From the NCBI GenBank assembly GCA_948469815.1, contig CAOKMR010000004.1, forward strand, positions 1 to 32,000: 32,000 nucleotides of DNA. The letters run 5' to 3'. The notes under the pieces were generated by a model that saw only the letters and a list, made by a program, of their open reading frames with translations, searched no databases and had not been told where the DNA came from. How positions within the stretch are numbered: the stretch's first letter is position 1; each line of letters opens with the position of its first letter. Made by a program: the position numbers and the translations under genes. Shown piece by piece: positions 167 to 31,683 of this stretch. Origin of the DNA: an uncultured Clostridiaceae bacterium. Lineage in GTDB: Bacteria > Bacillota > Clostridia > TANB77 > CAG-508.

Positions 167-246
167 ATAATTATGTAAAGTGTAGCTATGTAACTTGAAC
201 TTTAAGTTACTTAAAATAATTCTTATATATAAGGAGGATTTTGACT

Positions 247-615
247 ATGCAACATTTTAATGATGAAATGCTTTTTAGGCGGATTACCGCAGATGAATCA
301 ACAAAAACGTTGATTCATGAATGGATGAAAAATATCCAAGTATACTACAACGTAAAATATCGTTGCTTTGCAAGAATACTTGAAGCAACTGGTATGACTG
401 GTCCATTCAATTTGACACATGAAGGTAAAACACAATCAGACACCTTTAGATGTGAATATTTCAAAGAAAGCAAAAGAACTAGTGTTTCTGTCTTCTTGCG
501 TTTCTCTGATGGTTGCGATAATTCTGGAGAGATTTGGGTTAACGACAAAGAATCTGGGACTCGTAACATTTTTATCATCAAAAAAGGCAAGATTGTTCCA
601 CGCAATGAAGCGTGA
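247..615 (+). CDS. Hypothetical protein, 122 aa, no recognisable family
   Basis: The ORF track starts at TTG 241, but ATG 247 sits 9 nt after AAGGAGG and is the likelier start. A strong promoter lies upstream and a strong terminator downstream. GC is about 35% by hand count over 360 nt, visibly above the neighbours, and four reading frames stay open across the region. Confidence 0.6.
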   Translation: MQHFNDEMLFRRITADESTKTLIHEWMKNIQVYYNVKYRCFARILEATGMTGPFNLTHEGKTQSDTFRCEYFKESKRTSVSVFLRFSDGCDNSGEIWVNDKESGTRNIFIIKKGKIVPRNEA

Positions 616-624
616 TACTAAAAC

Positions 625-662
625 AACAGACCACAAGATACAATTTTATCTTGTGGTCTGTT
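625..662. terminator. 16-bp perfect hairpin between convergent genes, likely bidirectional terminator
   Basis: aacagaccacaagata / tatcttgtggtctgtt with loop caattt. T-rich on the plus side and A-rich upstream. Confidence 0.8.
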
Positions 663-704
663 TAGTTTGTTTCCTAAAAACATTTCGATAGTATTTACAC
701 TTTA

Positions 705-1271
705 TTATTTTTTCTCTATATCATTAATAATTTCTATAACTTCTGGCAATGACTCTAATCCACTCTTCTTTCCCATATGCCCAATACCTTCTATTAACAT
801 ATCCCTTGAATTTATAGTTTTTGCAAAATCTTGTAAAATTTGAAATGGGACTATATGATCATCATTACTATAAATTGAGTATCTATCCTTAACTAGAGTA
901 ATAAACTTTTTCCTTTCTTCCATACTAATTGTTATTGGTGCTATTACTGTATTTAAATCATCTCTTCCTTCAGTAATAAAAGATTTTGCAAACCCTGCTA
1001 AACTTATATATAGTCCTACATTAAGATTATTTTTGCTAATATATTTTATAAACATTGCATTTCCAATTGAATGAGCAATTACAATTAGTTCGTTATTAAA
1101 ATATTCTTTATATTTATCAAAGACTTTAAAGAATCCATCTATTGTTATGTTTGTCTTAGTAGGAAATTCTGGAATAATTATATTATAACCATTTTCTTCT
1201 AATTTCTCTTTAAAATATGTGTAAACTTTAGGCACACCATTAAAACCATGAATTAGCATTACATTCTTCAT
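705..1271 (-). CDS. Alpha/beta serine hydrolase (YdeN / Ser_hydrolase-like), 188 aa
   Basis: N-terminal MLIHGF, nucleophile elbow AHSIGN, late D..H (NDDHIV, GIGHM). The start is refined to ATG 1271 because the track's TTG at 1289 lies inside the GAGGAGG RBS. Confidence 0.75.
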   Translation of the reverse strand: MKNVMLIHGFNGVPKVYTYFKEKLEENGYNIIIPEFPTKTNITIDGFFKVFDKYKEYFNNELIVIAHSIGNAMFIKYISKNNLNVGLYISLAGFAKSFITEGRDDLNTVIAPITISMEERKKFITLVKDRYSIYSNDDHIVPFQILQDFAKTINSRDMLIEGIGHMGKKSGLESLPEVIEIINDIEKK

Positions 1272-1447
1272 TATATTTTTCCTCCTCAATTAATTTTATT
1301 ATATTTATTATAGAAAATTGTAAACAAAATATCTACACAAAGTTTTTATCAATATTGTTCAAGAAAATATCAATATACAACCTAGTACTTTGTGATGTTT
1401 TTTATTATATTAGTAGAACATATATTCAAGCAAATTCTTCGAAGGGC

Positions 1448-5015: not shown

Positions 5016-5681
5016 TTACATTTTTCTAAATACTCCACTTACTTTTCCTAATATTTGACAGTCTGGAACTATTATTGGATCCATTGTTTCATTTTCTGGT
5101 TGTAATCTTATATGGTCTTTTTCTTTGTAAAAAGTTTTTACTGTTGCTTCATCTTCAATTAAAGCAACTACAATTTGTCCGTTTTCTGCTACATTTTGTT
5201 TTCTTACTAAGATTAAGTCTCCATCAAGTATTCCAGCTTCAATCATACTTTCTCCTCTGACTTTTAACATGAAACTTTCAGTATTTCCTACAAAGTCTAA
5301 AGGAATAGGAAATGTCTCTGTTACATTTTCTACTGCAAGTATAGGTGCTCCAGCAGTAATTTTTCCAATTACAGGTACTTCTACTAATTCTCTTCCACCA
5401 TAGAAATCTTTTGCTTCTGCTTTTTTCTTACTTATTTCCTCTCCTTTTGCATTTTTTATTAATCTTAATGTTCTTCCTTTTTTATCTTCTTTTTTTATGT
5501 ATCCTAATTCTGAAAGTCTCGCTACATAACCATGAACAGTTGCTGTTGATCTTAATCCTACTTTTTTACCTATTTCTCTTACTGAAGGTGCATAACCATT
5601 TTCTTCTATTTCCTTTTCAATATATTTTAATATAGCTTTTTCTCTTGTATTTAAGTCCTCTGGATTTTTTCTTCTTTTCAT
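5016..5681 (-). CDS. lexA: LexA SOS repressor
   Basis: N-terminal wHTH (YAPSVREIGKKVGLRSTATVHGYV), autocleavage region (KITAGAPI) and S24 peptidase Ser/Lys (VRGESM ... VKTFYKE). Confidence 0.95.
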   Translation of the reverse strand: MKRRKNPEDLNTREKAILKYIEKEIEENGYAPSVREIGKKVGLRSTATVHGYVARLSELGYIKKEDKKGRTLRLIKNAKGEEISKKKAEAKDFYGGRELVEVPVIGKITAGAPILAVENVTETFPIPLDFVGNTESFMLKVRGESMIEAGILDGDLILVRKQNVAENGQIVVALIEDEATVKTFYKEKDHIRLQPENETMDPIIVPDCQILGKVSGVFRKM

Positions 5682-9136: not shown

Positions 9137-10210
9137 TTATTCTATTATACTAAGTACGTTTTCTTTTATTTTTCTCCAATCTGTATTTAAATTTATTGTT
9201 TGAATTTGTAATATAGCCTTTTTAACTAATCCATTACTAACAACATCTATATTATACTTTTCAGATATTTCATTTTCACTATATGGCATTGGATATAGTA
9301 ACATTCCTATAAGCTCATTATTAGTATTAATATTATTCATATATGCATTCATTTGATATAAATTTTCAGAAATCAAAGACTTTTTATCTTCTTCACTATG
9401 ATAACGTTTTTTTAAATAATCTGGATAATATTTAGTATCTATTATAATTGTTTTGTTACTATACTTTCCATATAAAACTGTGTCCATTCTCATTGATGGC
9501 AAAATATTCTGTTGTCCATTTTCTAATTTCCAATTTAAATGCTGTTGAGGATATACTTTATATGTATTTTTTAATTCTATAACATAAAATTTATATATAA
9601 ATTTTTCAAATATCAATTCCATTTTCTTATCATCATCTAATATATTTATAAATTTATACTTCCCATCGTCTTGAGATAACATTGTGCACTCTTTAATTAA
9701 TTTGCATACCATTATTATAAAATATGCATAATAATTATTCCTATTAAAATGTATATCAAATGATTTATCTGTTATGTTAATTATTCCAACATTATTAAAA
9801 TATAATAATATATTATTCAATTCTCTTCTATATACCTCTTGAACACCCTTAGATTTATATAGTCTATATGCTGTAGTTTTTATAATTTGATTTATTAAAT
9901 TATTTGCATGAAAATTATCATATTCACATACTGCTCTAGCATTTTCAAAAGATAGTTGATTTAATGATTCTTTAAAATCAATTTTACCTCTAATTCCTTT
10001 TATTTCTTCAGCATGCAATTTGTATTCCCTATATAATCCAATTTTTAAAATATCTTTTACATTTTCTATAAATAATTTTGCTAGAATGTTTGGACTGTCA
10101 AAGTCATCATCATTATCTTTCATAGTTAAATCTATCTCTTCAACTTTATCCCAAATATAACTGAACATATATAGTATATTTTTTATAGGCACTTTTCTAT
10201 TATTTTTCAT
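9137..10210 (-). CDS. mcrC: McrC-like nuclease subunit of a McrBC type IV restriction system
   Basis: Starts 12 nt downstream of the mcrB stop. McrC-like layout with a PD-(D/E)xK-type core (MRMDTV ... IIIDTKYY ... QMNAY). Confidence 0.85.
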   Translation of the reverse strand: MKNNRKVPIKNILYMFSYIWDKVEEIDLTMKDNDDDFDSPNILAKLFIENVKDILKIGLYREYKLHAEEIKGIRGKIDFKESLNQLSFENARAVCEYDNFHANNLINQIIKTTAYRLYKSKGVQEVYRRELNNILLYFNNVGIINITDKSFDIHFNRNNYYAYFIIMVCKLIKECTMLSQDDGKYKFINILDDDKKMELIFEKFIYKFYVIELKNTYKVYPQQHLNWKLENGQQNILPSMRMDTVLYGKYSNKTIIIDTKYYPDYLKKRYHSEEDKKSLISENLYQMNAYMNNINTNNELIGMLLYPMPYSENEISEKYNIDVVSNGLVKKAILQIQTINLNTDWRKIKENVLSIIE

Positions 10211-10221
10211 AAATTCATCCT

Positions 10222-12663
10222 TTATATTTTAATCTTATTCAAAGCTTCATTTATTTTTTCTTCCTCACCAAAGAAATATTCCTCCAATAATGGTTTTATA
10301 TCATATTTTACTATTTCTTTGTATGAACTCTCTAATTTATCTCTATCTAATTGATTTATAAAGTAACTATGCCCAATTATAAAATTATCGTTCTTAAATG
10401 TATCTTTAATAAATCGATTTAGCTGTATATACATTTGAGTTATTTTTGTTGCAAATTCATCATCAATCCCTTCATCATTAATAAGATAATTTTCTAATTT
10501 TCTATTTTCAAATGCTGGATTTAAAGTGATAAATGAAAATCTTCTTCTTAACGCATAATCGATCATTGTTAATGATCTATCTGCAGTATTCATAGTTCCA
10601 ATAATATACAAGTTTTTTGGGATATAAAAATCTTCTTCTGACGAATAGGTTAATTTTATCGCCCATTCTTTTTTTCTTTTATCTCCTTCAATTAGCATCA
10701 TTAGTTCCCCAAAAACTTTAGATAAATTACCTCTATTAATTTCATCAATAATAATACAAAAATCTATTGCTTTTCTTTTTTCTTTTTCAGCTTTCTCATA
10801 TTCTTCACAAGCTTCTTTAACAAGATTATAAAATAAGCCATTTTTCAGTTCAAATTTTCCAGTTTTATTAGGTCTAAATCCTTGTATAAAATCTTCATAA
10901 GAATATGATTGATGAAATTGTACTGTCTTTATCTTTGTATCATCTTTTTTTCCTATTATAGAAAAAAATAGTCTTTTTGCGCAAAAAGTTTTGCCAACTC
11001 CTGGAACACCTTGTAAAATAATATTTTTCTTCCTTATAAGTGTGTTTTTTATGATATCATATTGTTCATCATCTATAAATACTTCTTTTAAGAAATCTTC
11101 TTTTGTATATGGTATAAATTCATCATCTTTTTCATCTTGGATAATTATACTATATCTATCACTCCAATATGGATCATTAATAAATTTTTGATAATCTTGT
11201 TCTTGTCCATCAAAAACAAACTTTATTAGCTCTTGTTTCATCCAATCTTCTTTCTCATCCTTAGGCGTTATATTCCATATTGTATTTCTTCCAGTAAACA
11301 TATACCATTCTCGTTCTTCTGGTTCATCCCAATCAACTTTTACATTTTTTCCATCATTCAGATTTTCTATTACTGTGCCTGTACACTTTATTTTCATAAC
11401 AGATACAGTTTCACCATTATTTTCAAATGGTATATCTTTAGATTTTGTATAAGATGTCTTTATTGCAATTTTATCTCCAGGTTGCATTTTATTTACTATA
11501 TTAGTATATTTATTATCATATCCATTTTGCCAAATCGATTCTTCAATAAATCTTTGGGTTTGATCACCTAATGAATCCCAACTTGCACCAACTAACCAAT
11601 AATTCATACTTCTATCCTTTAGTTTTGAAACCCATTTTAAAAAGATCCTAGAAGCCTCATTATCTGTCATTTTAATAATTCTACCAGCTTCTGTTATTTT
11701 CCAAATACCTCTTTTGCTTCCATCAATCAGTCCTTCATATACCAAATAATTTCTAGCAAATGCAAGTTCATTTGCAAACTTATTTACTTCAGATTTTCCC
11801 CTAACTTCATTAATAACTTCTTCAGATAGTTTTTCATTTTCTATTATTTTTCTTCTTACCTCACTTGGTGTTGCACTTCCTCCAAATTCTTTTAATGCTT
11901 CTAACAAAGGCTTAAACCATCTTAAAAAAGAAGCATTTGATTTCTTATCAGTAAGATATGCATTGTCTGAAAATTCAACAAAATTCTTAAATTTTGAATT
12001 TTTCATATTAAATATTTTTTTACATTCTTCAATTATTTTTAAGTACTCTTCTGCTTTAGGTACATCTTTTAATTTAGTTATATTTCTTACAGTTTTAAAT
12101 TCATTATTTGTATTCTTTAAATATTCTCTGTTTTTAGCATCTAAATTAAGGTATGTATATGGTCTTATCCAAAACAATGCTAGTGTTATATTCCATTTCA
12201 CTAAAGGTTGTTTTATTACTTTATTGTAATTTTTACAAAATTTATTATAATTATCTCCATTTTGATTATCTGCATATTGTATCGCACTTTCAAATAAATT
12301 CCACAAATTAGGAATATCATTTTCTTTTCTGTTTGGAGTAAAATGATAGAACATAGACCTCATGTTGCTCAATATAGGTATTCCAGAAAAATCATTTGGT
12401 ACATTTGCCCTCAAACCAAATTTTTCTTTTATTTTCCTTAAAATGTTAATTCTATTACTTTCACTAATGTGTTTACTAAATATTCCCATTACTGAAAATG
12501 GACATACATCTTCTCCTATTTCATCTCCATCAATTAAAGGATATTTTAAGTTTAACTCTTCATATATTTCCTGTAATTTTATTATTAGCTCTTTTCTATT
12601 ATTTTTATAATCTAAAAGTTTATCTGCAAATTCTTGATAAATATCTATCCAATCATATTTCAT
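10222..12663 (-). CDS. mcrB: McrB-family AAA+ GTPase with an extended tripartite N-terminal region, 813 aa
   Basis: Walker A GVPGVGKT (aa 552-559), Walker B IIIDEINRGN (aa 637-646), McrB signature MNTADRS (aa 691-697). Upstream are an Mrr_N-like winged helix (aa ~245-330) and a possible PUA/EVE-like module (aa ~354-465). Confidence 0.9.
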   Translation of the reverse strand: MKYDWIDIYQEFADKLLDYKNNRKELIIKLQEIYEELNLKYPLIDGDEIGEDVCPFSVMGIFSKHISESNRINILRKIKEKFGLRANVPNDFSGIPILSNMRSMFYHFTPNRKENDIPNLWNLFESAIQYADNQNGDNYNKFCKNYNKVIKQPLVKWNITLALFWIRPYTYLNLDAKNREYLKNTNNEFKTVRNITKLKDVPKAEEYLKIIEECKKIFNMKNSKFKNFVEFSDNAYLTDKKSNASFLRWFKPLLEALKEFGGSATPSEVRRKIIENEKLSEEVINEVRGKSEVNKFANELAFARNYLVYEGLIDGSKRGIWKITEAGRIIKMTDNEASRIFLKWVSKLKDRSMNYWLVGASWDSLGDQTQRFIEESIWQNGYDNKYTNIVNKMQPGDKIAIKTSYTKSKDIPFENNGETVSVMKIKCTGTVIENLNDGKNVKVDWDEPEEREWYMFTGRNTIWNITPKDEKEDWMKQELIKFVFDGQEQDYQKFINDPYWSDRYSIIIQDEKDDEFIPYTKEDFLKEVFIDDEQYDIIKNTLIRKKNIILQGVPGVGKTFCAKRLFFSIIGKKDDTKIKTVQFHQSYSYEDFIQGFRPNKTGKFELKNGLFYNLVKEACEEYEKAEKEKRKAIDFCIIIDEINRGNLSKVFGELMMLIEGDKRKKEWAIKLTYSSEEDFYIPKNLYIIGTMNTADRSLTMIDYALRRRFSFITLNPAFENRKLENYLINDEGIDDEFATKITQMYIQLNRFIKDTFKNDNFIIGHSYFINQLDRDKLESSYKEIVKYDIKPLLEEYFFGEEEKINEALNKIKI

Positions 12664-20068: not shown

Positions 20069-20696
20069 TATGTCTTCTACATTCGTTACAATTTTAGCCC
20101 CTTCTCTTATCATTTCATTTGTTCCTTGTGAAGAACTATTATTTATGTTTCCGTGGAACTGCAAAAATTTCTTTTCCTTGTTCTAATGCATAATCTACAG
20201 TTATTAAAGTTCCACTTTTCTTTCTTGCCTCTACTACAATTACTCCATCACTTAATCCACTTATTATTCTATTTCTAAGTGGAAAATTAGTTGCTATTGG
20301 TTTTGTGTCTGGTGAATATTCAGTTATAATTGTTCCACCTGTTCTTATTATTTCTTTAAGCAATTCTATATTTTCTTTAGGATATATATTATTAAATCCA
20401 CTACCAAGTACAGCCACTGTTTTTCCTCCTGCTACCATACACCCCATATGTGCAAAACCATCTATTCCTCTTGCCATTCCACTTATAATGTTTATACCTT
20501 GTTTAGCTAACTTAAAACTTATATCTTTTGCTACTTTTTTACCATATTCTGAATATTGCCTACAACCTATTATTGCTAATCCAAAATTATCTAATATCTT
20601 TTCATTTCCCAATACATATAATTGTTTTGGCGGATTATCAATATTTTTTAATTTTTTTGGATAATCCTCATTTTGAATTCTTATTATTTTCATCAT
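20039..20696 (-). pseudogene. dprA: Short-form DNA processing protein DprA (Rossmann core only) disrupted by a +1 frameshift
   Basis: The ORF ends ...EIFAVPRKHK*. Removing one base (plus-strand G at 20153) restores AVPGNINNSSSQGTNEMIREGAKIVTNVEDILEE..., the conserved DprA continuation, down to a stop at 20039-20041. Confidence 0.8.
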
Positions 20697-20893: not shown

Positions 20894-21766
20894 TTATTTT
20901 GCTAATATAGTACATTTCTGCTTAGAGTCTTCTAATGTGTTTTCAGCAGCTTTAACTACATTACTCATCAACATTGCTATTGTCATCGGTCCTACTCCTC
21001 CTGGTACTGGTGTTATATATGATGCAATTTCTTTTACACTTTCAAAGTCAACATCGCCTATAATTCCATTTTCTGTTCTATTTATTCCAACATCTATAAC
21101 AACTGCTCCTTCTTTTACCATATCTTTTGTTAAAAATTTAGGTTTTCCTAATGCAACTACTATAATATCTGCATTTTTTGTAACTTCAGATAAATTTTGC
21201 GTTTTTGAATGACATATAGTAACTGTTGAATCTTTGTTCAATAAACATAATGACATTGGTTTACCTACAATATTGCTTCTTCCTAATACAACTGCATTTT
21301 TACCTTCTAAACTAATATTATATTTTTCAAACATTTTCATTATTCCAGCAGGTGTGCAAGAAATAAATCCATCTTGTTTTAGACATAATTTTCCTACATT
21401 TACAGGATTAAAACCATCAACATCTTTTTTAGGTGAAATTCTTTCAAAAGCTTCATCTATGTTTAAATGTTTTGGCATTGGGCTTTGTAACAAAATACCA
21501 TGAATATCTTCTCTTTCATTTAATGTATCAATTAATGAAAGTAATTGCTCCATTGTTGTATTACTATCTAATAAAAACTCCTCATATTTAATTCCTATTT
21601 CTAAACATGCTTTACTTTTATTTTTTACATATATTTGAGATGGTTTATCTTCCCCTACAAGTATTACTGCCAAATTAGGTATTATACCTTTGTCTTTTAA
21701 TTCTTGTACTTCTGATTTTAAGCCTTCTCTAACATTTGCTGCAAGTGTTTTTCCATCTATTATCAT
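20894..21766 (-). CDS. folD: Bifunctional methylenetetrahydrofolate dehydrogenase / methenyl-THF cyclohydrolase
   Basis: Typical FolD sequence throughout (IIDGK, VILVGEDKPSQIYVKNK, GRSNIVGKP, PVPGGVGPMT). Confidence 0.95.
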   Translation of the reverse strand: MIIDGKTLAANVREGLKSEVQELKDKGIIPNLAVILVGEDKPSQIYVKNKSKACLEIGIKYEEFLLDSNTTMEQLLSLIDTLNEREDIHGILLQSPMPKHLNIDEAFERISPKKDVDGFNPVNVGKLCLKQDGFISCTPAGIMKMFEKYNISLEGKNAVVLGRSNIVGKPMSLCLLNKDSTVTICHSKTQNLSEVTKNADIIVVALGKPKFLTKDMVKEGAVVIDVGINRTENGIIGDVDFESVKEIASYITPVPGGVGPMTIAMLMSNVVKAAENTLEDSKQKCTILAK

Positions 21767-21806
21767 TTTTAGTATCCTTTCTTGTTAATTATTTAAATAT
21801 ATAACT

Positions 21807-21929
21807 AAATTGGAAAATAATTGTTATTTGACTAGGCAAACAAAATTGAAATCAATAAGGCGTACCTATGTACGTTGTTTGATTTTAATTGAAGTTTAAC
21901 GATGTCAAAGGACAATTATTTTTTAATTT
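21807..21929 (+). repeat. 123-nt imperfect palindromic element, copy A
   Basis: Aligns without gaps to 24046-24168. It has an 18-bp outer stem, an internal stem and an apical cgtac-N4-gtacg hairpin. It fills the folD-sortase intergenic space and ends at the sortase stop codon. Confidence 0.7.
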
Positions 21930-22636
21930 TATGTTTGTTTAGCATATACAATAATTCTTTTACCTGCTTCATTAGAACATGTAGAAAGAGTTATTTCTCT
22001 TGCCCCATTAGTCTCACGTGTTGCATATGTCATGTCAGAATCAGTAGTTTCATAACTATTATATACTTGATATTCTAATTTAGTACCAGATGTATCTTTT
22101 ATGTATATTTTTGCGCCTGTTGTTAATTTTCCAATATCTGAAAAAAATGTTCCGTTTTTATAATTATGTCCCCATAAAACGAGATTTCCTGGTTTGTTAA
22201 CTGCATTTGCAGGATCCTGAGGATATACTGCAACTATGGCTATTTTTAAAGTTGCTGATGTATTTTCTTCAAGTATTGGATATTCAACATCTATACTTGG
22301 AATAGATATTGTACCTATTACCTTATATCCTTCATAATAAGTGTCTTTATTTCCTTGCTGTTGGTATATAGAATTTGAATTATCATTACCTAAATTATCT
22401 AATATATCTTGTAATGATGAATTGTTTCCTTCTGTATCTGAAGAATTGTTATTTGATGAGTTTGTATCATTATTATCCTCTGTGTTTTTATCAAATTGAG
22501 AAACTACATCTTCTGCTTTTTTATTTGTCTTGTTACTAGTATATACTTTATATCCGAAAAAACCTAATATTGCAACAACTATAACTATTGCAAGAACTAA
22601 CATTATTGATAATAAATTTCCATATTTATTTTCCAT
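21929..22636 (-). CDS. Membrane-anchored sortase-family transpeptidase, 235 aa
   Basis: N-terminal TM helix, Asn/Ser/Asp-rich linker, catalytic His (LWGHNY), TLSTC cysteine motif and a downstream Arg (KRIIVYA). Confidence 0.85.
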   Translation of the reverse strand: MENKYGNLLSIMLVLAIVIVVAILGFFGYKVYTSNKTNKKAEDVVSQFDKNTEDNNDTNSSNNNSSDTEGNNSSLQDILDNLGNDNSNSIYQQQGNKDTYYEGYKVIGTISIPSIDVEYPILEENTSATLKIAIVAVYPQDPANAVNKPGNLVLWGHNYKNGTFFSDIGKLTTGAKIYIKDTSGTKLEYQVYNSYETTDSDMTYATRETNGAREITLSTCSNEAGKRIIVYAKQT

Positions 22637-22760
22637 ATCATGTTCCTCCTATTTTCTAATTAAATTATTAGACTAATATATGTATATTATAACATATTTT
22701 TTAGATTTTTTCGACCTTTTAATACAATTTTTATCAATTTACTATTATAATTTTTATACT

Positions 22761-23510
22761 TCACTCTGCTCTTGCCCATACAATAGTTCTTGTACTAGCA
22801 TCATTCGTACAAGTACTTAATGAAATTTCTATATAACCTCTAGTGTCTCTAGTTGCATAATCAAAATCATTTGCTCCCGCTGTATAATTATTATACACTT
22901 TATATTCTAATTTAACACCATTAATATTAGTTATAAATATAGAGTCTCCATTTTGTAATGTATGTAATTTGGAGAACATTCTACTATTTCTATAGTTATG
23001 TCCTGCTATTACTGCATTTCCTGAAATGTTTAAAGTTTCCTCAACATTCGATGGATAAATTGCAGCTGTTCCAACTCTAAGAGTTGCAGTATTATCTACA
23101 TTAAATATAGGATATTGAATCTTAAGCTTTGGAATTGAAATTATTCCTATTACTTTGTATCCTTTATAAAAAGTTCCTAAATTATATGAAGATCCACTAT
23201 TACCTGATGATGTTGATGGTTTTTTTGTAGTTGGTTTTGAGGTATTAGAATTGTTGTTATTTCCTTGTGAAGGCTGTTCTGAATTGTCTGCTCCTTCTGA
23301 AGGATTTTCTTCTGAAATTTGTCCTTCTCCAATTTCTTCATAATTATTTTCAAATTGAGCCATTAACTCTTCTGCTGATTCATCCGCTGTATAATTGTCA
23401 TATAAACTATATATGGCGTATCCTACTAATATAATTAGAAATACAGTTAATATAATGATTAATGCTGTTAAAAACTTACTATACATCTTTAATTTATTAT
23501 ATTTTTTCAT
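22761..23510 (-). CDS. Membrane-anchored sortase-family transpeptidase, paralog, 249 aa
   Basis: Same architecture: TM helix, low-complexity linker, IAGHNY, SLSTC and TRTIVWA. Clearly paralogous to 21929-22636. Confidence 0.85.
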   Translation of the reverse strand: MKKYNKLKMYSKFLTALIIILTVFLIILVGYAIYSLYDNYTADESAEELMAQFENNYEEIGEGQISEENPSEGADNSEQPSQGNNNNSNTSKPTTKKPSTSSGNSGSSYNLGTFYKGYKVIGIISIPKLKIQYPIFNVDNTATLRVGTAAIYPSNVEETLNISGNAVIAGHNYRNSRMFSKLHTLQNGDSIFITNINGVKLEYKVYNNYTAGANDFDYATRDTRGYIEISLSTCTNDASTRTIVWARAE

Positions 23511-23660
23511 ATGCTTACCTTTCTTGTTTTATAATAATGTAAAAATCTTATGTTATTAAACTATCCTAAATTACTTTCTTTTCTACTATTATCTGAAAAT
23601 GTTCTACTGTCTGTCCTTTATTAACTCAAGTAAAATTTATTTCATAAATTTTTCATGAGT

Positions 23661-24005
23661 TTAAATTATCTTTTCTCCCATCTTTTCTCCTGCTAATATA
23701 TGAAAATGCAAATGTTTTACTGTCTGTCCTGCGTTTTCTCCGCAGTTAGATATTACTCTAAATCCTGTTTTATCTATACCAATATCTCTAGCAATACTGT
23801 TTATAACTGTAAATATTTTTCCAACTAAAGTTTCGTCTTCGCTTTTTAAATCTATTATTGATTCAATATGTTTTTTTGGAATAATAAGTATATGTATTGG
23901 CATTTGAGGATTTATATCTTTAAATGCTAATACATTTTCATCCTCATATACTATATCTGATGGAATTTCCCCATTTATTATTTTGCAAAATATGCAGTCA
24001 TCCAT
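23661..24005 (-). CDS. HIT-family (histidine triad) nucleotide-binding protein
   Basis: CIFCKI zinc-type N-terminus and the HLHFHIL histidine triad. Confidence 0.9.
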   Translation of the reverse strand: MDDCIFCKIINGEIPSDIVYEDENVLAFKDINPQMPIHILIIPKKHIESIIDLKSEDETLVGKIFTVINSIARDIGIDKTGFRVISNCGENAGQTVKHLHFHILAGEKMGEKII

Positions 24006-24045
24006 GTTATATATCCTTCCTTTATTTGTATTATATAATATTTTA

Positions 24046-24168
24046 AAATTGGAAAAGAATTGTTATTTGGCTAGGCATTCAAGAAAGAAATACCGGAAAC
24101 GTACTGTTGTACGTTGAGGATTTTCTTTCGAAGAATAACAACGCCAAATGGCAATTATTTTTCAATTT
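24046..24168 (+). repeat. 123-nt imperfect palindromic element, copy B
   Basis: Same length and architecture as 21807-21929. The 3' arm overlaps the stop codon (24162-24164) of the AlaRS-like gene. Confidence 0.7.
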
Positions 24169-25922
24169 ATTAAAACGGCTTTGATTCTACGTACCCCTGC
24201 TGACGATGCTTCTTCTTTTTGAATTTTGAAATGCCCTAAAACTTTTGTATTCTCTACATGTGGTCCCATACAAATTTCCTTTGATACATCACCTATTGTA
24301 TAAACTGTTACAGTATCTGGATATCTTTCTATAAACATCGCTTCTGCACCTGTTGCTACTGCATCTTCCTTTTTCATTTCTGTACTTGTAACGGTTAAAC
24401 TATCTTCTATCCATTTGTTAATTAAATCTTCTATTTTCTTTTTTTCTTCATCAGTTAATTTATGGTCACAAGGAAAGTCAAATCTCATTCTTTCTGGAGT
24501 TATATTACTTCCAGCTTGATGTGTAGCTGGGCCTAAAACTACTTTTAATGCAGCGTTTAGAAGATGTGTAGCTGTATGGTATTTTGTTTCCATTTCTCCA
24601 CTTCCACTTAATCCACCTTTAAATTTTTTATCAGAACCAATTTTAGATTTTTCTTGATGTTCTTTAAATAGTTTATCTATCTCCTTTAAATCTACTGAAT
24701 ACCCCTGTTCTTCTGCAATTTCTTTTGTAACTTCTGGTGGAAATCCATAGGTTTCATAAAGATTAAATACAGTTGATGGTTCTAATATAATTTTATTTTC
24801 TTGTTTTGCTCTATTTAAAACTTTTTCTAATTCTCTTTGACCATGTTCAAGTGTTTTTACGAATTTATCTTTCTCGTCAATTATAACTTGCTTGATTTCT
24901 TCTTTTTTCAATACTAAGTCAGAATACATTTCTCCAAGAGTATCTACATAAATATCTACTAATATAGATAACTCATTTAAGTTTATTTCAAGTTTATTTA
25001 AATGTCTTACCATTCTACGTATTAGTCTTCTTAATATATATCCTCTATCAATATTTGATGGTCTTCCTCCATCTGAAATAATCATCATACTTGCACGTAA
25101 ATGTTCTGCAACTATTCTTCTACTTTGAATATTTTCTTTATGTGGAGTTAATTCTAATAATTTATCCATTACAGGTACAAAAAGTTCTGTATCATAAGGA
25201 GTTTCTTTTCCTTGTAATAACATATTTATTCTTTCAAGTCCTAAACCTGTGTCTACATTCTTTTGTGATAATTTTTTATATGTACCATCCTCATTTTTAT
25301 AAAATTCCATAAATACATTATTCCAAATTTCAACATATTTACCACAACCACAAGATGGGTTACATTCTGAAGAACATTTTGGTTTACCTGTATCATAAAA
25401 CATTTCAGTATCTGGTCCACAAGGTCCTGTTTCTCCTGCTATCCACCAGTTATCATCTTTTCCAAAGAAATATATTCTTTCCTCTGGTATTCCTACTTTT
25501 TTCCATACTTTTGCACTTTCTTCATCTCTAGCACAATCTGAGTCTCCTCCAAAACATGTTACAGATAATTTTTCTACTGGAATACATAATTCTTTTGTTA
25601 AAAATTCATAACTCATACTAATAGATTCTTCTTTGAAATAATCTCCTAGTGACCAGTTTCCTAACATTTCAAAATATGTTAAATGTCTATTATCTCCTAC
25701 TTCATCAATATCAACAGTTCTTAGACATTTTTGATAATCTGTAAGACGAGTTCCATTAGGATGTTTTTGTCCTAATAAATAAGGGACTAATGGTTGCATA
25801 CCTGCTGTAGTAAATAAAACGGATGCATCATTTTCAGGGATTAATGGTGCACTTGGTATGACAGCATGTCCCTTTGATTTAAAATAATTTAAGTATTTGT
25901 TTCTAATTTCAATTGCTTTCAT
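24162..25922 (-). CDS. alaS: Alanine--tRNA ligase, short form lacking the C-Ala domain, 586 aa
   Basis: Class II AlaRS catalytic motifs (FTTAGMQPL, FEMLGNWSLGDYFK, WNNVFMEF) and editing-domain motifs (HTATHLL, CMGPHV, ends RRIKAVL). About 290 aa shorter than canonical bacterial AlaRS. Confidence 0.85.
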   Translation of the reverse strand: MKAIEIRNKYLNYFKSKGHAVIPSAPLIPENDASVLFTTAGMQPLVPYLLGQKHPNGTRLTDYQKCLRTVDIDEVGDNRHLTYFEMLGNWSLGDYFKEESISMSYEFLTKELCIPVEKLSVTCFGGDSDCARDEESAKVWKKVGIPEERIYFFGKDDNWWIAGETGPCGPDTEMFYDTGKPKCSSECNPSCGCGKYVEIWNNVFMEFYKNEDGTYKKLSQKNVDTGLGLERINMLLQGKETPYDTELFVPVMDKLLELTPHKENIQSRRIVAEHLRASMMIISDGGRPSNIDRGYILRRLIRRMVRHLNKLEINLNELSILVDIYVDTLGEMYSDLVLKKEEIKQVIIDEKDKFVKTLEHGQRELEKVLNRAKQENKIILEPSTVFNLYETYGFPPEVTKEIAEEQGYSVDLKEIDKLFKEHQEKSKIGSDKKFKGGLSGSGEMETKYHTATHLLNAALKVVLGPATHQAGSNITPERMRFDFPCDHKLTDEEKKKIEDLINKWIEDSLTVTSTEMKKEDAVATGAEAMFIERYPDTVTVYTIGDVSKEICMGPHVENTKVLGHFKIQKEEASSAGVRRIKAVLIN

Positions 25923-28564: not shown

Positions 28565-29773
28565 TTATATATTTACTTCTTCTAATAAAAAATCTATTAT
28601 ATTCATATGAATAATTCCATTTTGGCTATAATTAATTTTATCCATTGAGAGAACATATTTAGGATAATTATCATCAACAAATTTGTATGCTCCAAATTCT
28701 CTTTGCATAACTTCATCACTTGATAAATAATCTGTTACTTGTATATATTTTCTTTCTCCAAAGTCATCAATTACAAAATCAATTTCTCCTTTATCAGTTT
28801 TTCCTATATACACATCATATCCTCTTGCAATTAATTCATTGTATACAATATTTTCTAATCTTCCACCAATTTTTTTCTCGATTGGAGATTTTTTTAACTG
28901 CAATAGTCCTAAATCTGTTAAATAATATTTTTCTAATGTCGCCATAACATTTTTTCCTCTAATATCATACCTATTTACTTTATTTACAATTAGGGAATTT
29001 GTTATATATTCTACATAATTTAGAATTGTATCTGGAGTTGTTTGTATTTTCTCATTTTTTAAATATGAAGTAATTGAATTAGAAGATATTATTCCACCAA
29101 TATTTTCCATAATAAATTGAATTACTCTATTTAATAAATTTATATCTTTAACTTTGTTCCTTTCTATAATATCTTTTAATATTGCACTATTATATAAATC
29201 TTTTAAATATAATTTTCTTTCGTCAGCACTATCTGTATTAAAAATTTGTGGCATACATCCCCATTCTATATATTCTAAAAAAGATTTATCTATATTTATT
29301 TCCTCTTTTTTCTCTTTCTTAAGTTCTAAATATTCTTTAAATGTAAATGGCATCATTTTAATACTTATATATCTTCCAGCTAAATGCGTTGCTAGTTCAC
29401 CAGATAATAATTTACTATTTGAGCCTGTTATAAATATACTAACATTTAAAGTTGCTCTAAAAGAATTAATAACCTTTTCAAATTCATTAACATTTTGGAT
29501 TTCATCAAAAAGCAAATAATATTTTTCCTCATCTTTTATTTTTTCTTTTACATACATATTGAATTTCTTTGGTTCTGTAAAATCTATATAATCATAATCT
29601 TCAAAATTCATATATATTATATGATCTGCTTTTATTCCTTTTTGTTTTAATTCTTCTATTATTTGTTTCATTAATACTGATTTTCCTGAACGTCTAACAC
29701 CAATAATTACTTTTATCAATTCACTATCATATGAATCTCTTATCTTTTTTAGGTACATTTCACGTTTTATCAT
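28565..29773 (-). CDS. AAA-type ATPase with a C-terminal DUF4143-like domain, 402 aa
   Basis: Walker A GVRRSGKS and Walker B YLLFDEIQ. The architecture is typical of the AAA_14/DUF4143 family. RBS AGGAGG. Confidence 0.8.
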   Translation of the reverse strand: MIKREMYLKKIRDSYDSELIKVIIGVRRSGKSVLMKQIIEELKQKGIKADHIIYMNFEDYDYIDFTEPKKFNMYVKEKIKDEEKYYLLFDEIQNVNEFEKVINSFRATLNVSIFITGSNSKLLSGELATHLAGRYISIKMMPFTFKEYLELKKEKKEEINIDKSFLEYIEWGCMPQIFNTDSADERKLYLKDLYNSAILKDIIERNKVKDINLLNRVIQFIMENIGGIISSNSITSYLKNEKIQTTPDTILNYVEYITNSLIVNKVNRYDIRGKNVMATLEKYYLTDLGLLQLKKSPIEKKIGGRLENIVYNELIARGYDVYIGKTDKGEIDFVIDDFGERKYIQVTDYLSSDEVMQREFGAYKFVDDNYPKYVLSMDKINYSQNGIIHMNIIDFLLEEVNI

Positions 29774-29921
29774 TATTCCTTCCTCCTATGTTTTAAATTT
29801 ATTATATTGTATCACACATTTAATAGTTTTTCAAGTTTTTCCTTCTAAAGTCGTAAAACTTTTAATTTTTCTATATTTTTCGACTTTATGTATATAATTA
29901 GAACTATGGAAAATTTGTATG

Positions 29922-29938
29922 GACGACCATTGGTCGTC
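29922..29938 (-). terminator. Hairpin downstream of the recombinase gene
   Basis: gacgacc-att-ggtcgtc, 28 nt after the recombinase stop. Confidence 0.45.
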
Positions 29939-29965
29939 TGTCTTACAGAGACTCTAAAATTAATA

Positions 29966-31525
29966 TTAAATTTTAGGTAACTTTGGATATATCTGTAATT
30001 CAAAATTTGTTGGATCCGAATCCTTTTTTATATTTTTGTCTATTTTTAAATATGTAACTTTAGCAATAATACTTTTTAATAAAATATTTTTATCTTCAGA
30101 AAACTCTAGTTTATAATACAAATCTATAATATTTTCTAATTTAGGTATCATAGTTTCCTTCTCGTTTTGAATTTCAGTATTTTTATTTAAAAGTTCATTA
30201 TATTCCTTTAATTTGCCTTTTAAATTTACTATATTGTCTTTTATTGATTTTGAACGATTTATAAATTCATCTTTACTATAAATACCATTTTCTAAAAAGT
30301 CATATATTTTATCAAGTTTGGTATTTTCTTTTTCTAATTCTTTCTTAGTTAAAACAATAGATTTTTCAATTAATCTGTTATTATCAATTTTTGAGTTATC
30401 TTTAACTTCATAATCGACCTTATAATTCTCAAGCCATATTTTTAATGCTTCAATAATCTTGTTTTCTACTATATAAAGTTTAGAACTTATATTATCACAT
30501 TTTGAATTAGAACATATAAGTGTTGCAGGTTTATCAGCTTTTGTATAAGGTCTTCGTTGCATAGGTTTACCACATTTCTCACAAAATACAAGTCCAACTA
30601 AAGGATTTTGAATAGTATTACTATGCTTTACTTTTGGAGTATTCTGTTTTCTTTTTTCTTGTACTAATTCCCAAGTTTTATTATCAATAATAGGCTCATG
30701 TAATCCATCATAAATTAGATAATCTTGATTACGAGGTCTACTAATTATAAGATGTCCATTTTTCGTTTTCTTTTTTTGTTTCCTCCTATTCCAAGTTAGT
30801 TTACCAATATAGGTAGGATTAGAAAGAATATCTTTTACAGAAGAAATAGTCCATTCATTTGAAATTCTAGGATTTAAATTCATATCATTTAATTGTTCTA
30901 CAACAGAACCTATTGTGTTACTTTCAAAAGTATATAATCTAAAAATTTCCTTTACAATAGGTGCTTCATTTGGATTAATTGATAAAGTATAACCTTTAGA
31001 ATCTTTTAACTTTACTCTATCATATCCAAAAGGAGCAATATTTCCTACAAACTTACCTTCAGAAACAGAAATTTCTCTACCTCTTTGTAAACGTCTATTG
31101 ATTGTCTTATATTCTCTCCTAGACATAAATAAGCCAAATTCAAAATATTCTTCATCAAACTCATTATCTGGGTCATAAGTTTTAACAGGTGTAATAATTT
31201 TGGTATGAGAATATTTAAAAGCTTTTGAAACTCTTCCTTGATCAGCAGTATCACCACGAGCTAACCTTTCTACTTCAACAACTAAAACACCAGTCCATTT
31301 TTCATTTTCAACATCTTTAAGAAGTTTTTGCATTTCTTTTCTTTCACTAATTGTTTCTCCACTTACAACTTCTCTATAGATTTTTGAAATATGTAGGTTT
31401 CGCTTCTCAGCTAAAGTAGTTAATATTTTCTCATGTCTTGCTAAAGTTTCGCCTTCTCCATATTTTTCAGATTCGATATCTTCTCTTGATTTTCTTAAAT
31501 ATATTGCATATGTGCCATCTTGCAC
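29966..31525 (-). CDS. Large serine recombinase, about 519 aa
   Basis: N-terminal resolvase catalytic domain (YAIYLRKSRED, VVEVERLARG), recombinase domain, zinc ribbon (CEKCGKPM...CSNSKC) and a C-terminal coiled-coil. Probable GTG start at 31525 after AAAGGAGG, since the track's upstream extension has no RBS. Confidence 0.9.
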   Translation of the reverse strand: MQDGTYAIYLRKSREDIESEKYGEGETLARHEKILTTLAEKRNLHISKIYREVVSGETISERKEMQKLLKDVENEKWTGVLVVEVERLARGDTADQGRVSKAFKYSHTKIITPVKTYDPDNEFDEEYFEFGLFMSRREYKTINRRLQRGREISVSEGKFVGNIAPFGYDRVKLKDSKGYTLSINPNEAPIVKEIFRLYTFESNTIGSVVEQLNDMNLNPRISNEWTISSVKDILSNPTYIGKLTWNRRKQKKKTKNGHLIISRPRNQDYLIYDGLHEPIIDNKTWELVQEKRKQNTPKVKHSNTIQNPLVGLVFCEKCGKPMQRRPYTKADKPATLICSNSKCDNISSKLYIVENKIIEALKIWLENYKVDYEVKDNSKIDNNRLIEKSIVLTKKELEKENTKLDKIYDFLENGIYSKDEFINRSKSIKDNIVNLKGKLKEYNELLNKNTEIQNEKETMIPKLENIIDLYYKLEFSEDKNILLKSIIAKVTYLKIDKNIKKDSDPTNFELQIYPKLPKI

Positions 31526-31683
31526 ATTTCCTCCTTTCCTTGTAATTAAGATAGCCGTTGGGAACAAAGTGACCTTACGGATATCTTATGCAAAATGCTT
31601 TAGCATTTTGTATCCTTGAAAACGCATAAGCATCTTGCACTGCCTTTAACTATGATATAAATTATATCTGTAATTGCAACAAA

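What the first reader, a model, noticed from the sequence alone, without database searches (positions are those of the whole stretch)
21807..21929. 123-nt imperfect palindromic element with compensatory stem changes, copy A between folD and a sortase gene
Seen in sequence: 21807-21929 and 24046-24168 are both exactly 123 nt and align without gaps, with about 34 differences. The first 30 nt, the last ~30 nt and the apical cgtac-N4-gtacg hairpin are conserved. Each copy folds into one long hairpin. Element positions 1-18 pair with 106-123. The ttgac/gtcaa segment in copy A becomes ttggc/gccaa in copy B, so A-T at 21831/21905 corresponds to G-C at 24070/24144. The internal stem (positions ~38-49 with 73-84) has a different sequence in each copy (ttgaaatcaa/ttgattttaa versus gaaagaaatacc/ggattttctttc) but still pairs. 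About six non-Watson-Crick positions in copy A are G-T on the plus strand, and these would be A-C mismatches in minus-sense RNA. This favours a plus-sense RNA, antisense to the flanking genes, or a DNA-level element. Inference: either an ERIC/BOX-like miniature palindromic repeat or a small structured RNA family. I do not recognise it as any known riboswitch, T-box or 6S RNA.
Basis: seen in the sequence. Interest (0 to 1): 0.75.

Follow-up and report, generated by a model that had tools for sequence, protein, structure and literature searches.

The report
Antisense-locked hairpin repeat of gut Clostridia
The two 123-nt palindromes are copies of a previously undescribed repeat found many times per genome in uncultured gut Clostridia: a long, strongly conserved hairpin wedged between one gene's stop codon and the next gene's ribosome-binding site, almost always folding best on the strand opposite to those genes.

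Summary
The two copies share 89 of 123 bases, against 39±6 for random segment pairs. Each folds into one long hairpin.

A covariance model then found about 90 copies in 617 kb. No Rfam, plasmid, phage or viral-contig match was found.

The fold is very well supported:
- 96.4% of cells are paired, against 77% when shuffled.
- 33 of 40 pairs show changes on both sides.
- G·T outnumbers A·C by 370 to 26, so the + strand is the folding strand. It is the more stable strand in 79 of 80 copies.

Of 69 copies lying between co-directional genes, 66 are antisense to them. The element's 3' end touches or contains the upstream stop codon.

Filled and empty orthologous sites exist. A marked variant occurs at two unrelated loci, with homology ending at the hairpin base. 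No target-site duplication was found. Loss occurs by deletion between short direct repeats.

Orthologous copies are more conserved than third codon positions.

Best reading: a new REPIN/ERIC-like interspersed hairpin element without target duplications, locked in antisense orientation and possibly functional. The transposase, the transcript and the reason for the orientation remain unknown.

The parts
21807..21929 (+). Copy A of the hairpin repeat. The folding ('sense') strand is +. It lies between the sortase stop codon and the folD ribosome-binding site and start codon.
   Evidence: (117.6 bits on +, 41.6 bits on -).
24046..24168 (+). Copy B of the hairpin repeat, between the AlaRS stop codon and the HIT gene start.
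   Evidence: 135 bits on +, 55.2 bits on -.
21807..21818 (+). Copy A, 5' strand of the outer stem P1. It pairs with 21918-21929. In the family its sequence varies but it stays complementary.
   Evidence: helix 1: all 8 pairs covary, 97.1% paired.
21819..21832 (+). Copy A, 5' strand of stem P2 (AATTGTTATTTGAC). It pairs with 21904-21917. This is the most conserved stem and carries U·G wobble pairs on the + strand.
   Evidence: helix 2.
21832..21838 (+). Copy A, conserved 5' side of the asymmetric internal loop (CTAGGCA).
   Evidence: invariant by construction among the seed copies. It is retained as CTAGG/CAAGG in distant copies that lack the search word.
21897..21904 (+). Copy A, conserved 3' side of the internal loop (TAACGATG; family consensus TAACAACG).
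21859..21876 (+). Copy A, apical hairpin GGCGTAC-N4-GTACGTT, with two conserved G·U pairs at its base.
   Evidence: (GU:54 and GU:56).
24098..24115 (+). Copy B, apical hairpin (AACGTAC-TGTT-GTACGTT).
21929..21931 (-). Sortase stop codon (TAA). It overlaps the last base of copy A.
24162..24164 (-). AlaRS stop codon (TGA). It lies inside the 3' strand of P1 in copy B, so the last two codons and the stop are encoded by the element.
21764..21766 (-). folD start codon, 40 nt from the 5' end of copy A. Only the ribosome-binding-site region lies between them.
24003..24005 (-). HIT gene start codon, 40 nt from the 5' end of copy B.

Best explanation
These are two members of an old, dispersed family of roughly 125-nt hairpin repeats in an uncultured gut Clostridia lineage. 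The element is copied from locus to locus as the whole hairpin unit, from the base of outer stem P1 to its partner, and it does not duplicate the target. Copies persist only in the few nucleotides between a stop codon and the next gene's ribosome-binding site, and they often supply the stop codon. Copies are lost again by slippage between short direct repeats that bracket the hairpin.

The fold that evolution preserves lies on the strand antisense to the flanking genes. I infer that the working form is a single strand of that polarity, folded into the hairpin. RNA is favoured on energetic grounds, but single-stranded DNA is not excluded. I further infer that it is recognised at the conserved P2 stem and the asymmetric internal loop (CTAGGCA / TAACAACG), while P1 and the inner stems only need to pair.

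The near-absolute antisense orientation most likely arises because the sense strand carries a very stable hairpin followed by a U-run. In an operon mRNA that would terminate transcription or trigger cleavage. In the observed orientation the mRNA carries a weaker version interrupted by C·A mismatches, and the strong version faces any antisense transcription.

Shown here: multi-copy dispersal, filled and empty sites, unit boundaries, absence of target duplication, covariation, strand asymmetry, orientation bias, deletion junctions, and conservation at orthologous sites. Inferred: the single-stranded intermediate, the recognising enzyme, and the terminator or cleavage effect.
For: Family size. 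All but two records (L063 and L064) are titled Clostridium/Clostridia/Clostridiales, and several MAGs contributed more than one locus. The covariance model found about 90 copies in 617 kb, including copies that lack the search word.

Structure. On 83 copies, 96.4% of cells are paired against 76.8% when shuffled and 30-51% when the partner is slid. 33 of 40 pairs show changes on both sides.

Strand.
- G·T 370 against A·C 26. Outside the ascertained word and the two fixed apical G·U pairs the counts are 80 against 20.
- The sense strand is more stable in 79 of 80 copies (mean -50.1 against -36.6 kcal/mol).
- Sense-strand model hits score 110-150 bits; their reverse complements score 40-60 bits.

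Orientation. 65 of 79 copies with a gene on each side have both flanking genes on the opposite strand, and 3 are same/same. A second tally of 69 copies between co-directional genes gives 66 antisense and 3 sense. In 47 of 85 copies the stop codon of an ORF of at least 100 aa lies within -16 to +1 nt of the element's 3' end.

Mobility.
- L024 and L058 are filled while five orthologous sites are empty. L036:6675 is filled against L063 empty, and L073:5582 against L074 empty.
- Four copies sit inside one ribosomal-protein operon; the orthologous operons lack them.
- A variant marked by a 50-nt internal insert sits at two unrelated loci, and homology ends at the hairpin base.

No target duplication: direct repeats of 2-5 bp at the ends are no more frequent than in permuted flanks.

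Loss. L049, whose flanks are 98-99% identical to the window, lacks 117 nt of copy B between TATTTT repeats. L025 keeps a 9-nt remnant between CTTTC repeats.

Constraint at orthologous sites. Copy A is 96-97% identical to its orthologues where third codon positions of the flanking genes are 83-89% identical. Many other pairs exceed the identity of their flanks. Within orthologous groups, 49 pair-columns show double changes, 31 contain G·T and 7 contain A·C.

Terminator idea. All three strong sense-oriented copies carry the interrupted run ATTGTT, against 2 of 72 antisense copies.

RNA or DNA. The strand asymmetry is 12-16 kcal/mol with RNA parameters but only 3-5 kcal/mol with DNA parameters.
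Against: - No enzyme was found. There is no transposase next to the window copies.
- There are no identical copies within a genome. The best pairs within one MAG are 93-94% identical and the two window copies are 69.5% identical. Recent mobility is therefore not shown.
- Gene conversion between copies could mimic transposition. L034, L041 and L057 share P1 and flanks but carry different inner modules.
- No transcript data exist, and no conserved promoter lies upstream of the sense strand.
- The outer part of P1 lies beyond the U-run yet covaries just as strongly. A pure terminator role does not explain this.
- Antisense copies dominate even where the next gene is more than 200 nt away. Selection against termination inside operons may therefore not be the whole cause of the bias.
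- All seed copies were picked through one exact 20-mer. This inflates the conservation of the 5' arm and probably of the elements overall.
Confidence: 0.55

Rival explanations
1. The element is primarily a host-serving structured RNA made from the strand antisense to the operons. It would act as an insulator that terminates antisense (head-on) transcripts or exposes them to RNase III at gene junctions. Alternatively it could be the 3' module of cis-antisense RNAs that cover the next gene's ribosome-binding site. On this view the family spread in the past but is now kept by selection at each site.
For: - The preserved fold and the G·U pairs are on the antisense strand.
- The asymmetry is large only with RNA energy parameters.
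- Orthologous copies are more conserved than third codon positions and than the flanking coding DNA.
- Orthologous copies evolve by compensatory changes and G·U changes.
- The antisense:sense ratio is about 20:1.
- A U-run of at least 5 follows stem P2 on the sense strand in 44 of 72 antisense copies.
- Copies whose flanking genes lie on the strand that is locally in the minority are still antisense to those genes.
Against: - There is no conserved promoter and no expression data.
- The paired outer P1 lies 3' of the U-run, so it would be missing from a terminated transcript, yet it covaries.
- Copies are gained and lost between close relatives without obvious consequence.
- U-run-less variants (ATTAATT) occupy conserved sites.
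- The conservation estimates are inflated by ascertainment through an exact 20-mer.
Confidence: 0.22
2. The functional molecule is the operon mRNA itself. An intercistronic hairpin would stabilise the upstream cistron against 3'-5' exonucleases, act as a processing site, or bring the stop codon and the next ribosome-binding site together so that translational coupling survives the insertion. This would resemble REP/BIME, ERIC and Correia elements.
For: - The element is always inside the transcribed intercistronic space, starting at the stop codon and ending 11-60 nt before the next start in about half of the copies.
- The mRNA-sense strand still folds well, averaging -36.6 kcal/mol, with z -5.9 and -7.0 for the window copies.
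- Complementarity runs to the very base of the hairpin, which would juxtapose the stop codon and the ribosome-binding site.
- Four copies are tolerated inside a ribosomal-protein operon.
- REP, ERIC and Correia elements are reported to act in this way (PMC3049150, read).
Against: - The substitution pattern is wrong for this strand. Positions that alternate between G·U and Watson-Crick on the antisense strand would alternate between C·A mismatch and pair in the mRNA.
- A·C cells, which would be G·U in the mRNA, are about as rare as other mismatches.
- A stabiliser or coupling role does not require one orientation of a near-palindrome, yet the bias is about 20:1.
Confidence: 0.13
3. There is no selection for function. 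The orientation bias and the G·T excess would be survivorship effects of a selfish DNA palindrome. Hairpins that form on the exposed strand are deleted by replication slippage. Only copies whose more stable hairpin lies on the protected strand persist. Arm-to-arm mismatch correction would keep the arms complementary.
For: - Two independent deletions run between short direct repeats that bracket the hairpin.
- Inner modules are shuffled between copies, consistent with conversion.
- It is established that palindrome deletion is biased towards the lagging-strand template (recalled from the literature, not checked here).
Against: - With DNA parameters the two strands differ by only 3-5 kcal/mol.
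- Orthologous copies are more conserved than neighbouring third codon positions, which decay plus survivorship does not predict.
- The conserved unpaired motifs (CTAGGCA, TAACAACG) are not explained.
- Copies next to genes on the locally minority strand follow gene direction, although this is essentially one orthologous locus.
Confidence: 0.1

Closest known systems
REPINs (REP doublets forming hairpins) mobilised by RAYT tyrosine/HUH transposases
   Same: Both are roughly 100-nt non-coding extragenic units that fold into one long hairpin. Both have conserved end modules and a spacer that mainly has to pair, and compensatory changes are common in both (PMC3116915). Neither makes a target duplication. 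Excision or deletion products leave a few bases of one end behind. Both are proposed to act as single-stranded hairpins.
   Different: There is no conserved GTAG or CGTC tag, and the arms are not themselves short REP palindromes (PMC3733652). No RAYT was found in the sampled DNA. The host is a low-GC Clostridia lineage. The element is almost always antisense to its flanking genes.
ERIC/IRU (127-bp enterobacterial imperfect palindromes) and Neisseria Correia/NEMIS elements
   Same: They are similar in size, are imperfect palindromes, sit in transcribed intergenic regions of operons, have orientation-dependent effects on transcripts, and fold into long stem-loops (PMC3049150; PMC3184786).
   Different: There is no sequence or Rfam similarity. 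There is no TA-type target duplication. The outermost stem varies in sequence instead of being a fixed terminal inverted repeat. The orientation bias is much stronger.
Pneumococcal BOX, RUP and SPRITE repeats
   Same: They are small interspersed repeats of a Firmicute and fold tightly. SPRITE looks like an oversized Rho-independent terminator placed near the 3' ends of genes (PMC3049150).
   Different: Pneumococcal repeats merely mirror the coding bias (about 61-63% on the leading strand) and are enriched between convergent genes. Here only 1 of 79 copies lies between convergent genes, and about 95% of copies between co-directional genes are antisense.
Bacillus cereus group bcr1
   Same: It is a Firmicute interspersed repeat of about 155 bp whose RNA-level structure is maintained by compensatory changes, with a non-conserved genomic distribution between strains (PMC3184786).
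   Different: bcr1 is flanked by 5-bp direct repeats and folds into two stem-loops. The present element has no flanking repeats and forms a single long hairpin.
Integron attC sites
   Same: They are imperfect palindromes of 60-140 nt lying immediately 3' of ORFs, with conserved ends and a variable centre. The recombinogenic fold is on the bottom strand, i.e. antisense to the ORF. This comparison is recalled from the literature and was not checked here.
   Different: No R/L core boxes (GTTRRRY) are present. There is no integrase and no cassette array. The flanking genes are syntenic housekeeping genes (FolD, AlaRS, ribosomal proteins).

Membership tests
MITE (non-autonomous derivative of a DDE insertion sequence) | Terminal inverted repeats | tested here: met
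   P1 plus P2 form a terminal inverted repeat of about 26 bp. However, the outer 7-8 bp vary in sequence between copies while staying complementary (helix 1). That is not expected of a transposase-binding terminal repeat.
MITE (non-autonomous derivative of a DDE insertion sequence) | Target-site duplication flanking the element | tested here: not met
   Direct repeats of 2, 3, 4 and 5 bp at the palindrome ends were seen 5, 1, 0 and 0 times. Permuted flanks give means of 6.2, 2.6, 0.6 and 0.2. The filled/empty comparisons show no duplication.
MITE (non-autonomous derivative of a DDE insertion sequence) | An autonomous IS with the same ends in the same genomes | tested here: inconclusive
   None was seen among 80 loci plus the window (about 650 kb). 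Copies that lack the 3' end are truncations or lie at contig edges. Whole genomes could not be searched.
MITE (non-autonomous derivative of a DDE insertion sequence) | Small, non-coding, multi-copy, with presence/absence polymorphism | tested here: met
REP/REPIN-RAYT | REP units tagged by a terminal GTAG (or CGTC) tetranucleotide, arranged as an inverted doublet | tested here: not met
   No conserved GTAG or CGTC is present at either end or in the conserved modules. The definition is taken from PMC3733652.
REP/REPIN-RAYT | A cognate RAYT (Y1/HUH transposase) gene in the genome, typically flanked by the repeats | tested here: inconclusive
No such domain occurs among the window proteins. Whole genomes were not available.
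REP/REPIN-RAYT | Long hairpin kept by compensatory changes; no target duplication | tested here: met
   compare PMC3116915.
Any curated RNA family (Rfam 15) | A covariance-model match at or near the gathering score | tested here: not met
   At gathering thresholds the window gave only a tRNA. In the permissive scan of 21600-24400 the best overlapping hit was Spd-sr07 at 22.7 bits, against a gathering score of 55. Eleven related loci gave only a THF riboswitch and a tRNA elsewhere.
Rho-independent (intrinsic) terminator | A stable hairpin immediately followed by a U-run, at the end of a transcription unit and on the transcribed strand | tested here: inconclusive
   On the sense strand, stem P2 is followed by A-T5-6 in 44 of 72 antisense copies. 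But the run is itself paired within P1, the element lies inside operons, and it is on the non-coding strand. The simple terminator scan flags only the apical hairpin of copy A. No termination data exist.
Integron attC site | R''/L''-L'/R' core boxes (GTTRRRY), cassette arrays, an IntI integrase | tested here: not met
   No such boxes appear in the consensus. The flanking genes are syntenic housekeeping genes. Copies are sporadic, at 2 per 32 kb.

The most novel reading that the evidence does not exclude
The family is not merely selfish DNA. It would be a domesticated, strand-specific structured element: a hairpin made from the strand antisense to the operons. It would be installed at dozens of gene junctions to stop or destroy antisense (head-on) transcription in an extremely AT-rich genome, or it would be the substrate of a still unidentified structure-specific, target-duplication-less transposition system of Firmicutes. 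Either way, the antisense lock and the conservation above synonymous-site level would reflect function.
Probability: 0.25. Interest if true: 0.75.

Novelty: new variant of a known kind. Interest (0 to 1): 0.55.

Why it matters
- Small interspersed palindromic repeats (REP, ERIC, BOX, Correia) have been known for decades, mostly from cultured Proteobacteria, streptococci and bacilli. This one comes from uncultured, very AT-rich gut Clostridia and is absent from Rfam.
- It has an unusually clean evolutionary signal: near-perfect covariation, a fold preserved on the strand opposite to the genes, a roughly 20:1 orientation bias, no target duplication, and orthologous copies more conserved than synonymous sites.
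- If the antisense lock reflects function, it would be a rare example of a repeat family acting on antisense transcription at operon junctions. If it reflects mechanism, it points to an unknown hairpin-specific mobilisation system in Firmicutes.
- Practically, the family deserves a covariance model for MAG annotation.
- It supplies stop codons and C-terminal residues to housekeeping genes.
- It is a hotspot for small deletions between strains and a possible strain-typing marker.

Tried and rejected
- Known RNA families. Rfam at gathering and permissive thresholds on the window, and at gathering thresholds on 11 related loci, gave nothing relevant.
- Plasmid, phage or viral origin. There was no blastn match in PLSDB or INPHARED and no exact match in IMG/VR.
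- Target-site duplication. It is no more frequent than in permuted flanks, so a classical MITE is rejected.
- P1 as a copy of the target. This is rejected because the empty sites of the L024/L058 insertion contain neither P1 arm, and because P1 travels with the marked variant to an unrelated locus.
- Y1/HUH transposase in the sampled DNA.
- A conserved mini-ORF in the apex (ATG AGG CGT AC. ... TGA). This is rejected because the loop length varies and breaks the frame, and copy A has ATA in place of ATG (reading).
- A promoter upstream of or inside the element. The consensus scan gave fewer hits than shuffles and nothing conserved.
- GC skew as a way to separate replication from transcription. 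It failed, because skew (including at third positions) follows each gene's own strand.
- A second repeat family inside the element. The 50-nt insert of L020/L077 occurs nowhere else in the loci.
- A riboswitch or leader next to the conserved right flank TAATACAG... Rfam finds none. The flank appears to be the end of a short ORF whose stop codon abuts the element.

Full report
**1. The observation**

Window 21807-21929 (copy A) and 24046-24168 (copy B) are each 123 nt. They align without gaps at 89 of 123 identical positions. Random 123-nt segment pairs from this 26%-GC window share 38.9±5.6 positions, with a maximum of 66 in 20,000 pairs.

Each copy folds into a single long hairpin. As RNA the + strand gives -44.0 and -48.7 kcal/mol (z -9.5 and -9.7). 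The - strand gives -27.9 and -36.5 kcal/mol.

- The A-T to G-C exchange at 21831/21905 versus 24070/24144 is real.
- The inner stems differ in sequence but still pair.
- Copy A has six + strand G·U pairs.

The flanking genes are all on the - strand:
- FolD at 20894-21766;
- two sortases at 21929-22636 and 22761-23510;
- a HIT protein at 23661-24005;
- a 586-aa AlaRS at 24162-25922.

The window holds only these two copies.

**2. It is a large family**

I scanned one genome per species for AATTGTTATTTGNCTAGGCA. All but two records (L063, titled Bacteroidales, and L064, an uncultured bacterium) are titled Clostridium, Clostridia or Clostridiales. The titles point to animal and human gut MAG projects, and several loci come from the same MAG.

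L049 (CAMUHU, SRR14038232_bin.19) is 98-99% identical to the window over the flanking genes, so it is the same or a sister species.

I aligned 67 standard-length copies (A2) and built covariance model R1. On 617 kb the model found about 90 copies. About 20 of them lack the search word and are only 50-70% identical to the seed copies, yet they have the same architecture.

Sense-strand hits score 110-150 bits. Their reverse complements score 40-60 bits.

Density is 2 copies per 32 kb in the window and about 1 per 30 kb outside the seed positions. By extrapolation this suggests tens to more than a hundred copies per genome.

Nothing matches in Rfam, plasmids, phages or viral contigs.

**3. Anatomy (sense strand, which is the window's + strand)**

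- P1 is an outer stem of about 12 bp. Its sequence varies but it stays complementary. Its inner half is usually GAAAA(G)/ATTTTTC.
- A conserved G·A opposition follows.
- P2 is 14 bp (AATTGTTATTTGGC/GCCAAATGGCAATT) and carries tandem U·G pairs.
- An asymmetric internal loop has conserved CTAGGCA on the 5' side and TAACAACG on the 3' side.
- P3, P4 and P5 are variable stems.
- The apical hairpin is GAGGCGTRC-N4-GYACGTTGA, with two conserved G·U pairs.

Pairing ends exactly at alignment columns 3 and 134. The next position out pairs no better than chance.

**4. Covariation and strand**

On 83 copies (A3):
- 96.4% of cells form standard pairs, against 76.8±0.4% in shuffles (0 of 500 shuffles reach the observed value).
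- With the partner slid by 1-3 columns, only 30-51% pair.
- 33 of 40 pairs show changes on both sides, and every helix covaries.

G·T cells outnumber A·C cells 370 to 26. I then removed the pairs whose 5' partner lies in the ascertained word and the two fixed apical G·U pairs. The count is still 80 to 20, with 62 other mismatches.

The sense strand is the more stable strand in 79 of 80 copies (mean -50.1 against -36.6 kcal/mol).

The element has a GC skew of +0.20 on its sense strand. The flanks have -0.19 on the same strand.

The asymmetry is large with RNA parameters and small (3-5 kcal/mol) with DNA parameters.

**5. Position and orientation**

Of 79 copies with an ORF of at least 100 aa on each side:
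- 65 have both genes on the strand opposite the element's sense strand;
- 3 have both genes on the same strand as the element;
- 10 lie between divergent genes;
- 1 lies between convergent genes.

A separate tally of copies between co-directional genes gives 66 antisense and 3 sense.

The 3' end of the element abuts or contains the stop codon of the upstream gene. In 47 of 85 cases the stop of a long ORF lies at -16 to +1 nt. There are three classes: the stop directly at the hairpin base, TGA inside P1, and TAA in AATAATTG. Many of the remaining cases appear to involve short ORFs. In copy B the last two AlaRS codons and the TGA stop are encoded by P1.

The 5' end lies within 60 nt (11-58 nt) of the next start codon in about half of the copies, leaving just the ribosome-binding site.

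In one MAG, four copies sit between the S8, S14, L5 and L24 genes of the ribosomal spc operon. Three of them are antisense. The orthologous operons in two other MAGs lack them.

GC skew cannot separate replication from transcription here, because it follows each gene's own strand. In four related loci the flanking genes are on the strand that is locally in the minority, and the element is still antisense to them. This hints that orientation follows transcription, but it is essentially one locus.

**6. Gain, copying and loss**

- L024 and L058 carry a copy between a stop codon and a ribosome-binding site. In five other MAGs that site is a tight TAG-GGAGG-ATG junction. Neither P1 arm is present in the empty sites, so the whole hairpin is the inserted unit.
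- A variant marked by a 50-nt internal insert occurs at the alaS-HIT junction (L077) and at an unrelated locus (L020, which has no alaS or HIT). Homology starts and ends at the hairpin base.
- No target duplication of 2-5 bp exceeds chance.
- Losses are deletions between short direct repeats that bracket the hairpin. L049 lacks 117 nt of copy B between TATTTT repeats and keeps the stop-codon-bearing 3' P1 strand. L025 keeps a 9-nt remnant between CTTTC repeats.
- Inner modules can be exchanged between copies. L034, L041 and L057 have the same site and the same P1 but different inner stems.
- Copies within one genome are 50-94% identical and never identical. The family is old, and recent movement is not demonstrated.

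**7. Constraint at orthologous sites**

Copy A is 96-97% identical to its orthologues in L017, L076 and L001. Third codon positions of folD and the sortase gene are 83-89% identical.

Many other orthologous pairs exceed their mostly coding flanks:

| Pair | Element identity | Flank identity |
|---|---|---|
| L018-L078 | 97.6% | 86% |
| L018-L025 | 93.5% | 74% |
| L009-L046 | 96.8% | 87-89% |

The exceptions are the pairs with swapped inner modules.

Within orthologous groups, 49 pair-columns show Watson-Crick to Watson-Crick double changes, 31 contain G·T, 7 contain A·C and 8 contain other mismatches.

Ascertainment through an exact 20-mer inflates these figures somewhat. It cannot account for the contrast with third codon positions.

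**8. Mechanism**

Shown:
- an interspersed hairpin unit, copied whole and without target duplication;
- retained between stop codon and ribosome-binding site, antisense to the genes;
- its fold preserved on the antisense strand;
- deleted by slippage.

Inferred:
- a single-stranded working form of the sense strand (RNA is favoured by the energetics; single-stranded DNA is possible);
- recognition at P2 and the internal loop.

For the orientation lock, my best guess is that a sense-strand hairpin followed by a U-run would terminate or destabilise operon transcripts. In support, all three strong sense-oriented copies carry an interrupted run (ATTGTT), against 2 of 72 antisense copies. Against this being the whole story, outer P1 lies beyond the U-run yet covaries, and antisense copies also dominate at long intergenic spacers.

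Three rivals are scored in the report: a host-serving antisense RNA or insulator, an mRNA-level intercistronic hairpin, and pure survivorship of a selfish palindrome.

**9. Comparison with known elements**

The element works most like REPINs: a long hairpin, compensatory changes, no duplication and asymmetric excision remnants (PMC3116915). It also resembles ERIC, Correia and bcr1-type repeats (PMC3049150; PMC3184786).

It fails the MITE definition because it has no target duplication. It fails the REP/REPIN definition because it has no GTAG or CGTC tag (PMC3733652) and no RAYT was found.

Pneumococcal repeats show only about 61-63% strand bias and favour convergent gene pairs. Here convergent sites are almost unused.

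The resemblance to integron attC sites is one of form only: bottom-strand folding, directly 3' of ORFs.

**10. Verdict**

It is a new family, and in its antisense lock and lack of target duplications a new variant, of bacterial interspersed palindromic repeats. There are credible signs of constraint. The enzyme, the transcript and the cause of the orientation bias remain open.

Noticed in passing
window 24162-25922 (-): The alanyl-tRNA synthetase is only 586 aa. It has the catalytic domain (tRNA-synt_2c) and the tRNA_SAD editing motif but no C-terminal C-Ala/DHHA1 region. Orthologues in L076 and L077 have the same length (96.8% identity), so this is not a truncation artefact.
   Followed up: partly
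window 20139-20696 (-): The DprA homologue is only 185 aa and matches just the DNA_processg_A core.
   Followed up: no
window 21929-23510 (-): Two tandem sortase paralogues carry N/S-rich low-complexity linkers. The direct repeat D2 (22052-22108 and 22884-22940, 75% identical) reflects this paralogy.
   Followed up: no
window 9137-12663 (-): A McrBC-type restriction module is present: a McrC-like protein (357 aa) next to an 813-aa Mrr_N plus AAA_5 protein.
   Followed up: no
window 28565-31567 (-): A large serine recombinase (533 aa; Resolvase, Recombinase and zinc-ribbon domains) lies next to an AAA_14/DUF4143 ATPase at the window edge. This may be the border of an integrated element. CotJA/CotJB and SpoVT genes nearby indicate a spore former.
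   Followed up: no
window 614-673: A 30+30-nt inverted repeat with no spacer (80% complementary) lies between the convergent ORFs 241-615(+) and 705-1289(-). It looks like a bidirectional terminator.
   Followed up: no
L076 5072-5183 (alaS-HIT junction): In this MAG the site of copy B is occupied by an unrelated sequence of about 94-112 nt (GAAAATTCTTTGAATCACTTATGAGTACTGCTCACCCC...), not by the hairpin element. The same site therefore has four states among relatives: intact element, element with a 50-nt insert, deleted, and replaced.
   Followed up: partly
L077 1390-1440 and L020 about 5086-5135: A 50-nt insertion (…GCGAGTGAAATTTATTT.ATAAATTT.TCA…, itself a small hairpin) sits in the 3' internal-loop region of the element. 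It was found only in these two copies among all loci.
   Followed up: yes
L038 3801-3990 (-): A 5' fragment of one element (through CTAGGCA) is directly followed by a complete element of a different subfamily, and that one again starts at the stop codon of the same gene as in the orthologous L071. The same stop-codon site has therefore been occupied or replaced more than once.
   Followed up: partly
L025 3611-3710 (+): A THF riboswitch (80.1 bits) is present in a related MAG locus. It is unrelated to the repeat.
   Followed up: no
L036 6154-6275 (-) and 6675-6803 (+): Two divergent copies with the same P1 (AAAACTAATCAAA...) lie in inverted orientation around the S14 gene and a third copy. This looks like an inverted duplication within the ribosomal operon of that MAG.
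   Followed up: no
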